DNA of 64,000 bases from Ginglymostoma cirratum. Taxonomy: Eukaryota. The position numbers were made by a program. The stretch covers positions 35,521,137 to 35,585,136 of the forward strand of contig JAHRHZ010000029.1 of NCBI GenBank assembly GCA_024137785.1. The letters run 5' to 3'. Below are positions 24,001 through 27,000 of the stretch, piece by piece; position 1 is the stretch's first letter, and each line of letters opens with the position of its first letter.

Positions 24001-27000
24001 CTTCTGAAGAGCATCCCACCCAAATCTACCCCACTACCATATCCCTGTAACCCTGCAATTCCCATAGATAACCCATCTAGCCTGCACAGTGTGGGCAATT
24101 TAGCATGACCAATCCACTTAACTTGCACATCTTTGGACTGTGGGAGGAAACAGGAGCACCCAGTGGAAGCCCACGCAGACATGGGGAGAATGTTCAAACT
24201 CCACACAGACAATTGCCTGAGGGTGGAATCAAACCTGGGTCCCTGGTGCTGTGAGGCAGCAGTGCTAACCACTGAGCCATCGTGCCCCTCTTGAGGCAGT
24301 CTGACACTTTTGTTGGCCTCCATTGTCAGTTATGACGCAGTGTGGAGCTGGAGAAACACAGCAGGCCAGGCAGCATCAGAGGAGCAGGAAAGCTGATGTT
24401 TTGGCTTGGGACTGTTCTTCAGAAATCATTTCTGAAGAAGTGTCCTGATCCGAAACATCAACTTTCCTGTTCCTCTGATGCTGCCTGGCCTGCTGTGTTT
24501 CTCCAGCTCCACTCTATGTTATCTCTGACTCTGGCATCGGCAGTTCTTACTATCTCTATTGTTGGTGAGTTTGCTTGGCAGGAAGTTCTGTAATGAGTTT
24601 AAGAGTGGTCAGAGGCTGTGAAAGGGCTAATAAAAGGTAACAATAGTGATAAAGAGTTGCAAAGAACAATTTATTCCTTCCAAAGATATGATGAGATGAG
24701 GGCTCCTGCTGTAAGGTCAACCCTTATGTTGATCAACTAATTAAAAGAAAGGCAGATTTGAATGAGGCATGGGAGTGGTCTTCCATTGTGTTTCTGGCAT
24801 TCTAGAATGGAACTGCTGCAAGAATGTGATCCTTTATTCCCCCATTTCTAATTCATCCCATTGCACTCATATCTGTTTGTGGAAAAGTATCAAATTAGAG
24901 GAGATTTTACAATGAACTTTACAAAGGCAGTATGTTGCATAACTGGCAAGATGTAGTTATAAGCACAGACTGTTAGTGACTAAAAGGACAAGGCATGTTA
25001 ATGCAGCAAATAAGGAAAACACATTTCTATACATTACCAAAGGAGCACAATGAGCAGTTCATTCTTAACAGTGAAAACTTTGAAGCATTTAAGAAGCTTT
25101 CTGAGAAATGTATTAGAAACTTTTGACACAGGTTTTTAATGAAGTAGAATTGTCTACTTTTTTTCAAAAAATGATTGAAACAGGATTTATAAAAGCTTTA
25201 AAAAGCAAAGGAAAGACATACTTTTATGTCCAGCTGAGGAGTGGAGAATCATCTCTCTGCTTGTTACCTCCTCTATTGATCACAGTAGTTTTTTTTAATA
25301 TATTGCTTTTAGTACGCAGCTATATTGCATTACAATGAAAACAGAGTACTAGTCAAAGTTATGAGCCAATTACAAGGTTTTCTTCAGTGTAAGAAAGAGG
25401 AATTGTATCACTTACTGAATCTAAATAAAATGATAAAACAGGGTGAGCACACAGAAACGCGAGCATGACAGTTAAAAGGGGGAGGGTGTCCAATAAAATA
25501 AATATGTATAGATAAAGATAAGATAAAGAACATGTAGTTTAAAAAAAAAGTTCTGAAAGCCTTTGAGTAGTTATGTTTGAACCTGAGACCATGGTTGCTT
25601 AGGTGGTTCCTTATATCCTCAGCAGCAGTGAAATTTGTTGGATCCTTGAATTCTTGGTAAACAGATGAATCTCTGATTTGTTTTATTACCACTGCTGGCT
25701 TTTGAGATTATGAAAAAGAAACAGGAAGAGAGAGAGTGTGTATTTTTTTTCTCTGTCTGCTGCTCTGTGAAATAGCTACTGAAATATGGTTTGTTTGTAT
25801 ATTACCAAGTCTAGCTCCATTTTCTTTCCAAGCTGGATAGTTAGAGGTAACCATTTCAAGTCTAGTATATACGATACCTCATAGTAACAAAAAGTCAAAC
25901 AGGAGATGTGTGTTTCTTGCTGCCTGACTCAGTTAACTGGCTTTAATGTCTTGAAATAAAATGGTGGTTTCAGTTCTGATCAGATTGTTAACTTTACATT
26001 TGTTTCCTGAATTTGCCTCAATCTGTGATCGGGTAATTTCTGGTCATATTCGGTCCATGCTTTTTTTTAAATTTTAAGAACTATTTTAGTCTAAGCCTCA
26101 GGTTTGGACATCAAATATTGGAAGGTGAAAATGAATAGTCTATATTTTACCACTATCATGAAAACATAAGACGAATATTTAAAGTACACAGTAAAAAGGT
26201 TAAGGCTTGAAACCCAGGAATAGCATGGTCAATATTTACTGTTGTAAAGGCTGATGATTCTATAATTTTCTGCTAGACATGGAAGGACAAACAGGGAAAA
26301 AAAAATGGGGAAAAAAATGCTGCAATTTACCAGCTGCTCATACAGATTTTTTTAGCTCAGTTACCTCCAGGATCCAAAGTCATGAAACTATTTACAGTTA
26401 ATGATCAGGTTTCTATTACAGGTAGGGCGGAGATTAAACCTATTAGCTCAGTATTTGCAGAGGTGTGTAGCGGTACTTGGGGAATTATTTTCTGAATATT
26501 TTCTAAATGATGATGTCTTTAAAATGTATTGACTCCATGATTGGCATAATTTGGTTGCTGTCTATTTATTTTAAGGTAATTCCGTGGAAGTTGTGTTATT
26601 TGAATGTTGAAATTTTTTTTCGGTTAATTGAAGAATGTAGATTGACTTTAAAAATGCACTCAATAAATCAAAACCTTGCAAAAAGAGAGGTCTTACAAGT
26701 AATTGGAGGGTGGGAGAGTCAGATGGATAGTGTATGCGTGTGAAGATCTTCATTTGTACTTAAGATTTTTAGTATCAAACAATATAAAGCATCTCGGTAT
26801 TTATGACAGGTAGTAAGTGTGAGTTTATGTCAAATAATCACGTATAAAACTATCAAACAAAGCTTTGTTCCTACAGACAATTATCAGATAGAAAATGCAA
26901 TTTAAAGAAGAATGAAATAGTAAGATTGGCATTGTTATGAGAATGTGTAGCTAATAATAAACAGAGTTATATCTGCTTCATCAATGAAAAAACTGCAATC

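What the first reader, a model, noticed from the sequence alone, without database searches (positions are those of the whole stretch)
24421..24445. Short PLE copies start at an initiator-like motif just upstream of the hammerhead, not at its cleavage site
Seen: a YYANWYY motif abuts the ribozyme in longer copies of three families: CCATTTC (54685-54691), CCAGTCC (29646-29652) and CCACTTC (40226-40232). Family B short copies begin (C)AGTTC. The 5' ends of short copies cluster within a few nt of that A. At 24426/24428 both arms begin ATTTCTGAAG, separated by one base; similar ends occur at 32611, 35504, 43245, 58441, 62159, 30510, 37926 and 6281. Inference: a roughly 100-135 nt Pol II transcript (Inr, ribozyme, pLTR end) is itself retrotransposed uncleaved, forming a mini non-autonomous element. 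This would fit a ribozyme that is inactive as a monomer. Drosophila Penelope is known to initiate inside its pLTR.
Basis: partly seen in the sequence, partly recalled or inferred. Interest (0 to 1): 0.78.

Follow-up and report, generated by a model that had tools for sequence, protein, structure and literature searches.

The report
Penelope retroelement stubs share one start
Many tiny copies of a Penelope-like jumping gene in this shark-like sequence begin at the first base of their hammerhead-ribozyme motif, which points to a fixed 5' end of the copied RNA, but the sequence alone does not show that this end is a transcription start.

Summary
The sequence facts are right. The window holds 31 copies or arms of the 3'-terminal module of Penelope-like elements (PLEs), in four families. 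Twelve of the 24 whose 5' end falls inside the module start 3-5 nt before the C of the CUGANGA box (binomial P about 9e-13). One of 29 determinable ends lies within 2 nt of the predicted cleavage site.

- That start is the outermost base pair of a 4-bp hammerhead helix I, so the "initiator" overlaps the ribozyme.
- YYANWYY occurs once per 82 nt here, and in family C it sits in another register, A at -7 while the short copy starts at -4/-3.
- The two 3' ends, about 100 nt and about 130 nt, match the published internal start sites of PLE reverse transcription and the "tail" (PMC11167929).

Best reading: these are run-off cDNAs from a fixed internal start back to the physical 5' end of the template RNA. 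A dedicated 100-135 nt transcript is not needed. A transcription start is the simplest cause of that end but is unproven. An enzyme-set boundary and RNA trimming remain open. Twenty-two of the 31 sit in head-to-head pairs.

The parts
24340..24426 (-). Family A short copy, left arm of the head-to-head pair named in the finding. Its 5' end is at -4 (ATTT before CTGAAGA). Its 3' end is about 10 nt short of the usual first site.
   Evidence: The arms are each other's best match at 91%.
24427..24558 (+). Family A short copy with tail, right arm of the pair. Its 5' end is at -5 or -4. Base 24427 (C) is either its templated -5 or an extra G of the other arm.
52952..54783 (+). Family A long copy, 5'-truncated inside the RT. 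It comprises an RT plus GIY-YIG ORF remnant (53018-54403), a pyrimidine-rich spacer or pLTR (54404-54686), the hammerhead motif from 54687 (C3 at 54691), and a 3' end at the first site. It is flanked by an 11-bp duplication, CAAAAACTCTT, at 52941-52951 and 54784-54794.
30408..30512 (-). Family A short copy with both hammerhead boxes intact. Its 5' end is at -4/-3, with T at -4.
30513..30710 (+). Rearranged partner arm. A 78-nt RT-coding piece occurs twice (30513-30590 and 30592-30669) and is fused directly to the tail segment (about 30668-30710).
37795..37930 (-). Family A short copy with tail. Its 5' end is at -4/-3. A 14-nt duplication with one mismatch (TGAATGTTTTCTGA / TGACTGTTTTCTGA) overlaps the element's first 8 nt, so the true end is ambiguous between -4 and +3.
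37942..37962 (+). A 21-nt fragment of the family A 3' end (from +74) facing the 37930 copy across a 15-nt spacer. It lies outside the duplication just described, so it may be a separate event.
58309..58441 (-). Family A short copy with tail, single, with both hammerhead boxes intact. Its 5' end is at -4/-3, with T at -4.
18532..18674 (.). Family A head-to-head pair. The minus arm is 18532-18619 (5' end +40, with tail). The plus arm is 18620-18674 (5' end +13..+17). The junction has a 4-nt overlap.
   Evidence: The arms are 100% alike over 31 nt.
35886..36053 (.). Family A head-to-head pair. The minus arm is 35886-35959, with its 5' end at +26, 2 nt before the predicted cleavage site. The plus arm is 35960-36053, with its 5' end at +7, an internal deletion and a tail.
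59898..60091 (.). Family A head-to-head pair. The minus arm's 5' end is about 0 (range -2..+5). The plus arm's 5' end is at +20, with tail.
   Evidence: The arms are 91% alike and are mutual best matches.
3376..3867 (.). Two family A arms facing each other across the 400-N gap (3417-3816): a minus arm with tail at 3376-3416 and a plus arm at 3817-3867. Their 5' ends are unknown. The gap was not filled.
32611..32710 (+). Family B short copy, single, inserted into a SINE-like repeat. An 11-12 bp duplication (GGCAATTTAGC, plus A) bounds it. Its 5' end is at -5..-3.
35504..35632 (+). Family B short copy with tail, single. A 14-16 bp duplication (ATACTTCTAATGAT...) bounds it. Its 5' end is at -5..-3.
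43147..43245 (-). Family B short copy, single. Its 5' end is at -3, preceded by GT.
61880..62160 (-). One family B short copy with tail, split by an unrelated insert of about 110 bp (61984-62094). Its 5' end is at -5/-4 (CAGTT).
23683..23903 (.). Family B head-to-head pair. The minus arm is 23683-23787 (5' end +19..+23, with tail). The plus arm is 23799-23903 (5' end -5). The spacer is 11-18 nt.
27316..27616 (.). Two family B copies facing each other across about 95 nt. The minus copy is 27316-27418, decayed, with its 5' end at about -2..0. The plus copy is about 27514-27616, with its 5' end at -4, helix II deleted, and a tail.
27017..27096 (-). Old family B copy, single. Its 5' end is uncertain (-2..+6).
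6163..6281 (-). Family C short copy with tail, single.
39372..40349 (.). Family C long head-to-head pair. The arms run about 39372-39605 (-) and about 40030-40349 (+). The hammerhead C3 is at 39462 and 40235. No ORF was detected.
28720..29732 (.). Family D long head-to-head pair. The arms meet near 29265 inside the GIY-YIG coding part (29037-29272 minus, 29262-29459 plus). C3 is at 28847 and 29652. The plus arm has lost helix II.

Best explanation
These are solo 3'-terminal modules of endonuclease-bearing Penelope-like retrotransposons in a shark-type genome.

Each stub would be a cDNA that started at one of two fixed internal sites on the element's RNA, about 95-100 nt or about 130 nt downstream of the hammerhead start. 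The longer version carries the 'tail'. Synthesis then ran back until the template ended. The template's physical 5' end lies at the outermost base pair of hammerhead helix I, 3-5 nt before the CUGANGA box. Every run-off product is therefore hammerhead plus about 100-130 nt and nothing more.

Because reverse transcription starts internally, the template can be an ordinary long PLE RNA whose first 100-130 nt hold the start sites. A special short transcript is not needed, and the stubs are probably dead on arrival.

The simplest source of that RNA end is transcription starting at the pLTR/hammerhead boundary, with the pyrimidine-rich pLTR acting as promoter. Head-to-head pairs would arise when both target strands are nicked and extended, with the arms joining wherever the two cDNAs meet.

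Shown here: the PLE identity, the two 3' ends, the pile-up of 5' ends, its coincidence with the helix I edge, and the pairing pattern. Inferred: that the pile-up marks an RNA 5' end, and, more weakly, that this end is a transcription start.
For: PLE identity.
- The long A copy has RVT_1 (E 7.8e-07) and a weak GIY-YIG match (E 0.012).
- Its ORF remnant aligns over 458 residues at 85.6% to Rhincodon typus LOC125484857.
- Tails are optional and present in all four families.
- Eleven head-to-head pairs hold 22 of the 31 copies.
- Duplications of 11-16 bp flank three copies.

Fixed 5' end.
- Twelve of 24 ends lie at -5..-3.
- Of 17 copies that clearly pass C3, 12 stop at -5..-3, none stops between -6 and about -140, and 5 run on.
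- Six of 9 single insertions are full stubs.
- Eight of 9 internal truncations are arms of pairs, and the ninth is a weak hit.

Helix I.
- It is 4 bp, with changes on both sides between families B/D and C at all four pairs.
- Positions -5 and -6 are unpaired in the 4 long copies that were aligned.

Literature.
- In the anole PLE, reverse transcription starts at two internal sites 111-118 nt into the ORF and about 30-40 nt further on. The hammerhead lies at the pLTR/ORF junction. Both DNA strands are cut and extended. Ribozyme cleavage is not needed, and no reads end at the cleavage site (PMC11167929, main text read).
- D. virilis Penelope starts inside its pLTR from an internal Inr+DPE promoter (PMC2377424, passages).
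- C at -5 and A at -4, a pyrimidine-purine step, are shared by the A and D long copies and by the B copies.
Against: - No transcript data could be consulted.
- YYANWYY is common here, 1 per 82 nt, and is partly dictated by the ribozyme.
- In family C the short copy starts at T or C (-4/-3), not at a purine and not at the motif's A at -7. That is a single copy.
- Six of 12 stubs have T at -4. In five of them, families A and B, the long copies or relatives have A there. This is not expected of a simple start at that A.
- If the ORF begins at the AUG inside CUGAUGA, the leader would be about 7 nt, which is short for a main mRNA. That AUG is seen in one A copy and in one shark gene model.
- No full-length element or head-to-tail tandem is in the window, so the position of the module at the 5' end of a coding RNA is taken from the anole element, not shown here. 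A search with the module's translation found no PLE protein starting with it.
- The sample is one 64-kb window.
Confidence: 0.5

Rival explanations
1. Enzyme-set boundary. The RNA continues upstream, but the PLE reverse transcriptase, or its ribonucleoprotein, usually stops or jumps to the target once it has copied the hammerhead. The helix I edge then acts like the template boundary of telomerase, the closest relative of PLE reverse transcriptases. Long copies are the cases that read through.
For:
- The start bases differ between families: A or T in A, A or G in B, T or C in C. That suits a positional rule better than a sequence rule.
- PLE and telomerase reverse transcriptases share ancestry (PMC8557442, abstract).
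- The enzyme jumps templates readily, as the rearranged arm at 30513-30710 shows.
Against: - A block normally stops an enzyme before a structure, not after it has copied it.
- The modules fold no better than shuffled sequence, with z from -0.08 to +1.34 in 5 of 5, so no stable monomer structure marks the spot.
- In the anole assay, shortening the template's 5' end shortened the product (PMC11167929). That describes run-off, and no internal stop was reported.
Confidence: 0.2
2. A separate Pol II transcript of about 100-135 nt (initiator, ribozyme, pLTR end) is made and retrotransposed as such, forming a self-propagating mini non-autonomous element.
For: - The unit length and defined 5' end are as described.
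- Family B has 10 short or truncated copies and no long copy in the window.
- An internal promoter downstream of the start is known for D. virilis Penelope (PMC2377424).
Against: - The two 3' ends are explained by internal starts of reverse transcription, not by transcript ends (PMC11167929). Both ends of a family carry the same short motif, TATCTC in A and GTTTTT in B.
- By analogy with the anole element, template recognition needs sequence beyond the copy's own 3' end, so a stub should not be copied again.
- A stub begins at -5..-3, so it carries at most one of the two pyrimidines upstream of the motif's A.
- Nothing in the window shows stub-to-stub descent.
Confidence: 0.12
3. RNA processing. 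The template's 5' end is made after transcription. Either a 5'-3' exonuclease trims to the edge of the protein-bound hammerhead region, or an unknown endonuclease cuts at the boundary. In D. virilis this same boundary coincides with the 3' end of the 5'-UTR intron.
For: - Cervera and de la Pena report that the D. virilis intron ends at the 5' end of helix I (PMC4209133, passages).
- Families B and D have a pyrimidine tract followed by CAG at -5..-3, which looks like a 3' splice site.
- The ends spread over 3 nt, as nibbling would give.
Against: - Splicing leaves no free 5' end at exon 2.
- Families A and C lack the AG.
- No stable fold is present to stall an exonuclease.
- No such processing has been described for PLEs in the papers I read.
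Confidence: 0.12
4. Chance, an alignment artefact, or joining driven by microhomology with the target, with no defined RNA or enzyme end.
For: One copy (37930) has an 8-nt overlap between the target duplication and the element's start.
Against: - P is about 9e-13 for the pile-up.
- The flanks are unrelated, two ends are bounded by duplications, and four families agree.
Confidence: 0.03

Closest known systems
Endonuclease-bearing Penelope-like elements, in particular the anole element PAc (Frangieh et al. 2024, PMC11167929; main text read)
   Same: - RT plus C-terminal GIY-YIG ORF.
- A minimal hammerhead next to the region where reverse transcription starts.
- Two alternative 3' ends about 30 nt apart (the 'tail').
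- Extension from both target strands, which fits the head-to-head pairs.
- Uncleaved RNA as the template.
   Different: That paper maps the 3' ends of copies. Its main text, which I read, does not mention a preferred 5' end at the ribozyme's edge. Its supplementary figures are PDFs I could not open. Here the ORF start could not be placed, and no tandem or full-length copy is present.
General PLE insertion anatomy (Craig et al. 2021, PMC8557442; passages read)
   Same: Heavy 5' truncation, an adjacent inverted 5'-truncated copy, a 30-40 bp tail, and hammerhead motifs in the terminal repeats.
   Different: Truncation is described there as widespread, with no preferred point. Here 12 of 24 ends fall in one 3-nt window.
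Drosophila virilis Penelope promoter and intron (Schostak et al. 2008, PMC2377424; Cervera and de la Pena 2014, PMC4209133; passages read)
   Same: - Transcription starts inside the pLTR from an internal TATA-less Inr+DPE promoter.
- The 5' edge of hammerhead helix I coincides with an RNA landmark.
   Different: In the fly the start lies about 120 nt upstream of the hammerhead (a 46-nt exon plus a 75-nt intron), and the landmark at helix I is the intron's 3' end, not the start. No start has been mapped in a vertebrate PLE in the papers I found.
Animal non-LTR retrozymes (Li, Clavereau and Pollet 2026 preprint, 10.64898/2026.07.22.740005; abstract and Results part 1 read)
   Same: Short non-coding units carrying type I hammerheads and related to PLE terminal regions. 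'Monomers' are scattered over the genome.
   Different: Retrozymes are defined by head-to-tail tandem arrays and are thought to move through circular RNA. None of the 31 copies here is in a head-to-tail array, and the unit boundaries are not at the cleavage site.
Retroviral minus-strand strong-stop DNA and L1 twin priming (recalled textbook knowledge, used only as analogies)
   Same: - Strong-stop DNA is a short cDNA made because synthesis starts close to the RNA's 5' end and runs off.
- Twin priming gives inverted, 5'-truncated L1 arms from one event.
   Different: There is no tRNA primer or R-region transfer here, and the PLE enzyme and endonuclease are unrelated to those of L1.

Membership tests
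Penelope-like element (EN+) | Single ORF with a reverse transcriptase followed by a C-terminal GIY-YIG endonuclease | tested here: met
   This was tested in the long A copy only. RVT_1 gives E 7.8e-07 (29.4 bits against a cut-off of 29.6). GIY-YIG gives E 0.012 (16.3 bits against 22.6). Both are just below the Pfam cut-offs. One frame aligns over 458 residues at 85.6% to a whale-shark protein and at 44% over 459 residues to an unnamed RT-bearing protein. Endonuclease fragments also occur in the D pair. Families B and C have no ORF in the window.
Penelope-like element (EN+) | Optional 30-40 bp tail, that is, two alternative 3' ends | tested here: met
   Families A, B, C and D each show copies ending at a first site and copies about 30 nt longer.
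Penelope-like element (EN+) | Adjacent inverted 5'-truncated copy | tested here: met
   Eleven head-to-head pairs hold 22 of 31 copies. The arms are mutual best matches in 3 of 4 A pairs compared.
Penelope-like element (EN+) | Partial head-to-tail tandem forming a pLTR around a full-length ORF | tested here: not met
   No head-to-tail neighbours and no full-length copy are in this window. A 64-kb sample cannot exclude them elsewhere in the genome.
Hammerhead ribozyme (minimal type I, PLE type) | Conserved core CUGANGA ... GAAA | tested here: met
   Both boxes are intact in 4 of 16 aligned copies. Most of the others differ by G-to-A or C-to-T changes at CG steps. Across the window the pattern gives 6 matches against 2.4 expected, and 4 of the 6 are these copies.
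Hammerhead ribozyme (minimal type I, PLE type) | Helices I and II supported by covariation; a bulged base before helix II; G10.1-C11.1; a palindromic 15.2-16.2 in place of helix III | tested here: met
   Helix I is 4 bp, with changes on both sides at all four pairs between B/D and C. Helix II is 5 bp, with U-A, U-G and A-U variants. The bulged A and the palindromic CG or GC step are seen. The feature list comes from PMC4209133 (passages). Family A has a U-C mismatch at the third helix I pair in 5 of 6 copies.
Hammerhead ribozyme (minimal type I, PLE type) | Match to curated covariance models | tested here: not met
   There was no Rfam hammerhead hit at gathering score on the window, nor at E up to 10 on 30380-30540 and 40200-40360. 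This is expected for motifs without helix III, but it is still a negative result.
Hammerhead ribozyme (minimal type I, PLE type) | Self-cleavage, as a dimer or with protein help | not testable with these tools
   Published PLE motifs cleave poorly alone (PMC4209133) and need the element's protein in the anole (PMC11167929).
Pol II initiator (Inr) core promoter | YYANWYY at the start site, beyond chance | tested here: inconclusive
   The motif is present in 5 of 5 long copies, with its A at -4 in A and D and at -7 in C. The background is 1 per 82 nt, with 1-6 further matches (median 2) per 200 nt upstream. Three of its seven positions are fixed by the ribozyme.
Pol II initiator (Inr) core promoter | Capped transcripts starting at the A, or an untemplated G at copy junctions | tested here: inconclusive
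   G stands at -5 in 5 of 12 stubs against a 20% background (P = 0.076). Three of the five are explained by the partner arm (24429-, 30512-) or by the target duplication (37930-). Transcript data are not testable here.
Non-LTR retrozyme | Head-to-tail tandem repeats of a hammerhead-bearing unit | tested here: not met
   None of the 31 copies is in a tandem array. The nearest same-strand neighbours are more than 200 nt apart.

The most novel reading that the evidence does not exclude
Vertebrate PLE RNAs begin exactly at the first base pair of their hammerhead, and the enzyme's start sites lie only about 100-130 nt from that end. Every round of copying would then first make a 'strong-stop' cDNA. 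The stubs are strong-stop products that were integrated as they were. Productive copies arise when the enzyme jumps from the RNA's 5' end to the 3' part of the same or a second RNA. That jump would explain, in one stroke, the partial tandems (pLTRs) that define the class. It would also explain why the ribozyme sits where it does and pairs as a dimer: as a 5'-terminal handle that brings two RNAs together, rather than as a cutter.
Probability: 0.12. Interest if true: 0.85.

Novelty: new variant of a known kind. Interest (0 to 1): 0.55.

Why it matters
Several things about PLEs are still open: what the hammerhead is for, where vertebrate PLE RNAs start, and why the elements always end up as partial tandems and inverted pairs. 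A sharp, family-independent 5' end at the edge of helix I would be a cheap genomic read-out of the template RNA's end, or of an enzyme boundary. It can be checked in any assembled PLE-rich genome and compared with CAGE data. It would also tell annotators that the very abundant single hammerhead hits in fish, amphibian and reptile genomes are a discrete product class, not random truncations. If it does not hold genome-wide, the finding reduces to ordinary truncated PLE copies.

Tried and rejected
- Rfam at gathering score and at E up to 10 on two copies gave no hammerhead hit, only chance matches to other families.
- Folding five modules as single RNAs gave z-scores from -0.08 to +1.34. There is no thermodynamic signal, and the monomer hammerhead is not the predicted fold. 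I dropped the idea that a stable structure marks the 5' end.
- I searched the protein collection with the 42-residue frame-0 translation of a module, asking for longer proteins. The aim was to see whether PLE ORFs start in the module, as in the anole. The only hit was a 108-residue gene model with the module in its middle. This is not informative, and the tool itself warns that finding none is weak evidence.
- Frame 0 from C3 is free of stops in 6 of 7 A/D copies but not in family C. No ATG lies upstream in frame in the long copy. The ORF start stays open.
- Duplication searches for 58441, 43249, 6283 and 62160 found nothing adjacent to both junctions.
- I considered a Pol III origin because both family B 3' ends are T runs. 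I rejected it because families A and C have no T run at their ends.
- I considered snap-back (hairpin) synthesis for the pairs. It fits the symmetric 24426/24428 pair, but not the pairs whose arms end at different element positions (+40/+15, +26/+7, 0/+20, +21/-5).
- Literature searches found no paper describing a preferred 5' end of PLE copies at the hammerhead, or a mapped start in a vertebrate PLE. The library lacks most subscription journals.
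Full report
WHAT IS THERE. The finding's coordinates hold the centre of a 219-bp head-to-head pair. The minus arm is 24340-24426 and the plus arm is 24428-24558. Both begin ATTTCTGAAG and are separated by the single base C at 24427. The window contains one run of 400 N (3417-3816), which I left untouched.

CATALOGUE. BLAST with four seeds, then profile searches built from 15 copies and pairwise alignments, give 31 copies or arms of one kind of module. 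There are 16 in family A, 10 in B, 3 in C and 2 in D.

One B copy is split by an unrelated insert of about 110 bp (62095-62160 plus 61880-61983) and is counted once. One B hit (17623-17658) is weak, at E 0.013.

Two arms face each other across the N gap, so their 5' ends are unknown.

IDENTITY.
- The long A copy (52952-54783) carries a decayed ORF. It has an RVT_1 match (E 7.8e-07) and a weak GIY-YIG match (E 0.012). Both are just under the Pfam cut-offs.
- One frame aligns over 458 residues at 85.6% to Rhincodon typus LOC125484857. The next-best hits are from Stegostoma, Mobula and Chiloscyllium. The source is therefore an elasmobranch, probably a carpet-shark relative.
- The ORF ends near 54403. 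A spacer of about 285 nt follows, 80% pyrimidine over its last 200 nt. The hammerhead motif then starts at 54687.
- The copy is bounded by an 11-bp duplication.
- The D pair carries endonuclease fragments on both arms, meeting near 29265.
- Families B and C have no ORF in the window. They are placed with PLEs by the architecture of the module only.

THE RIBOZYME MOTIF. Rfam finds no hammerhead at gathering score or at E up to 10 on two 161-nt stretches. The motif does fit the minimal PLE hammerhead of Cervera and de la Pena (PMC4209133, passages):
- CUGANGA
- a bulged A
- a 5-bp helix II closed by G-C
- GAAA
- a 2-bp palindromic step in place of helix III
- then U or C at the cleavage position

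Both boxes are intact in 4 of 16 aligned copies. Most of the rest differ at CG steps.

Helix I is 4 bp. All four of its pairs change on both sides between families B/D and C. In the four long copies aligned, positions -5 and -6 do not pair. Family A has a U-C mismatch at the third pair in 5 of 6 copies.

Single modules fold no better than shuffled sequence (z from -0.08 to +1.34). This agrees with a motif that is not stable as a monomer.

THE 5' ENDS. The C of CUGANGA is taken as 0.
- 12 copies start at -5..-3: 24426+, 24429-, 30512-, 37930-, 58441-, 32608+, 35500+, 43249-, 62160-, 23798+, 27523+ and 6283-.
- 3 old copies are uncertain, at -2..+6.
- 9 start at +7 or later.
- 5 run on upstream for at least 140 nt.
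- 2 are unknown.

Twelve of 24 in one 3-nt window of 101 positions has P about 9e-13.

Of the 17 copies that clearly pass C3, none ends between -6 and about -140. The stubs are therefore a discrete class, not the short end of a smooth truncation curve.

The predicted cleavage site lies at +27/+28 in A and +29/+30 in B. One of 29 determinable ends (35959, at +26) lies within 2 nt of it.

The start at -4 is the outermost pair of helix I. The stubs contain the whole ribozyme motif and nothing upstream of it.

THE INITIATOR MOTIF. YYANWYY is present in 5 of 5 long copies. Three points weaken it:
- It occurs once per 82 nt in the window, and 1-6 more times (median 2) in each 200-nt upstream stretch.
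- Its last three positions are helix I and C3.
- In family C its A is at -7, while the one short C copy starts at -4/-3.

What remains is a shared C-A step at -5/-4 in A, B and D. That suits the general pyrimidine-purine rule for Pol II starts (recalled knowledge). The A is also needed to pair with U at 1.4.

G stands at -5 in 5 of 12 stubs (P = 0.076). Three of those G are accounted for by the partner arm or by the target duplication.

THE 3' ENDS AND THE PAIRS. Every family has two 3' ends about 30 nt apart. Within a family both ends carry the same short motif, TATCTC in A and GTTTTT in B.

This matches the anole element PAc (PMC11167929, main text):
- Reverse transcription starts at two internal sites, 111-118 nt into the ORF and about 30-40 nt further on.
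- The hammerhead lies at the pLTR/ORF junction.
- Cleavage-dead ribozyme mutants insert normally.
- No reads end at the cleavage site.
- Both target strands are cut and extended.

Extension from both strands fits the 11 head-to-head pairs here, which hold 22 of 31 copies.
- Eight of the 9 internal truncations are arms of such pairs.
- The arms of one pair are each other's best match in 3 of 4 A pairs compared.
- Six of the 9 single insertions are full stubs.

Inverted neighbours and tails are listed as typical of PLEs by Craig et al. (PMC8557442, passages).

MECHANISM. The simplest account is run-off. The enzyme starts at a fixed internal site and copies until the RNA ends, and the RNA ends at -4 plus or minus 1.

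Because the start is internal, the template can be any PLE RNA with that 5' end.

In the anole, the template needs sequence up to +172, beyond the start sites. By analogy, stubs should not be copied again.

A transcription start at the pLTR/ribozyme boundary is the most economical source of the end. D. virilis Penelope does start inside its pLTR from an internal Inr+DPE promoter (PMC2377424, passages). There, however, the start lies about 120 nt upstream of the hammerhead, and it is the intron's 3' end that coincides with helix I.

Two rivals stay open: a boundary set by the enzyme itself, and post-transcriptional trimming. They are favoured by the fact that the end follows the structural edge rather than one sequence, and by the mixed first bases.

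NOVELTY. Truncated PLE copies, their hammerheads, tails and inverted partners are known. A preferred 5' end at the helix I edge, and the reading of single hammerhead hits as run-off products, did not turn up. Seven full-text searches found nothing, and neither did the papers I read. I could not open the supplementary PDFs of PMC11167929 or of PMC4209133, or the supplements of the 2026 preprint. Those files may already show such a coverage edge.

The evidence here is one 64-kb window. No eukaryotic genome collection was available to test the pattern genome-wide.

Noticed in passing
positions -4 and -5 of the stubs at 30512-, 37930-, 58441-, 35500+ and 43249-: Five A/B stubs have T where the long copies and the other stubs have A at -4. 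All five departures are T (nominal P = 0.014, post hoc). In three of them the preceding base is G. This could be a subfamily variant, an untemplated addition, or a target preference. It remains unexplained.
   Followed up: partly
3376-3867: The 400-N assembly gap is flanked by two PLE arms pointing towards each other. The gap probably sits in a head-to-head pair that the assembler could not cross. It was not filled.
   Followed up: no
30513-30710: Plus-strand arm in which a 78-nt piece of RT-coding sequence occurs twice in tandem and is fused directly to the tail segment. It looks like repeated template jumps during one insertion.
   Followed up: partly
37795-37930 and flanks: A 14-nt direct repeat with one mismatch flanks this stub. 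Its upstream copy includes the element's first 8 nt, and 11 extra nt lie between the tail and the downstream copy. This suggests joining by microhomology, or insertion next to an older PLE fragment.
   Followed up: partly
32560-32770, 40700-40800, 24094-24290: Copies of a SINE-like repeat. The one at 32560-32770 is interrupted by the family B stub with an 11-12 bp duplication. That gave a clean empty-site comparison with 40716-40790.
   Followed up: partly
modules of families A and D (e.g. 58309-58436, 24432-24558, 28720-28847): The frame starting at C3 has no stop in 6 of 7 A/D copies, while the other two frames do. Two shark gene models read through or contain the module (P0004 C-terminus, P0010). 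The module may encode the N-terminus of the PLE protein, as in the anole, but no start codon or full-length ORF was found.
   Followed up: partly
61984-62094: Unrelated repeat fragment of about 110 bp inserted into the family B stub.
   Followed up: no
44780-45130 (-): Weak Pfam match to RSN1_7TM (E 0.0012, below cut-off) in a 116-residue open frame. It may be an exon of a host calcium-permeable channel gene.
   Followed up: no
3' ends of families A and B: The first and second 3' ends of a family carry the same short motif, TATCTC in A and GTTTTT in B. This suggests that the two reverse-transcription start sites are a short internal repeat.
   Followed up: partly
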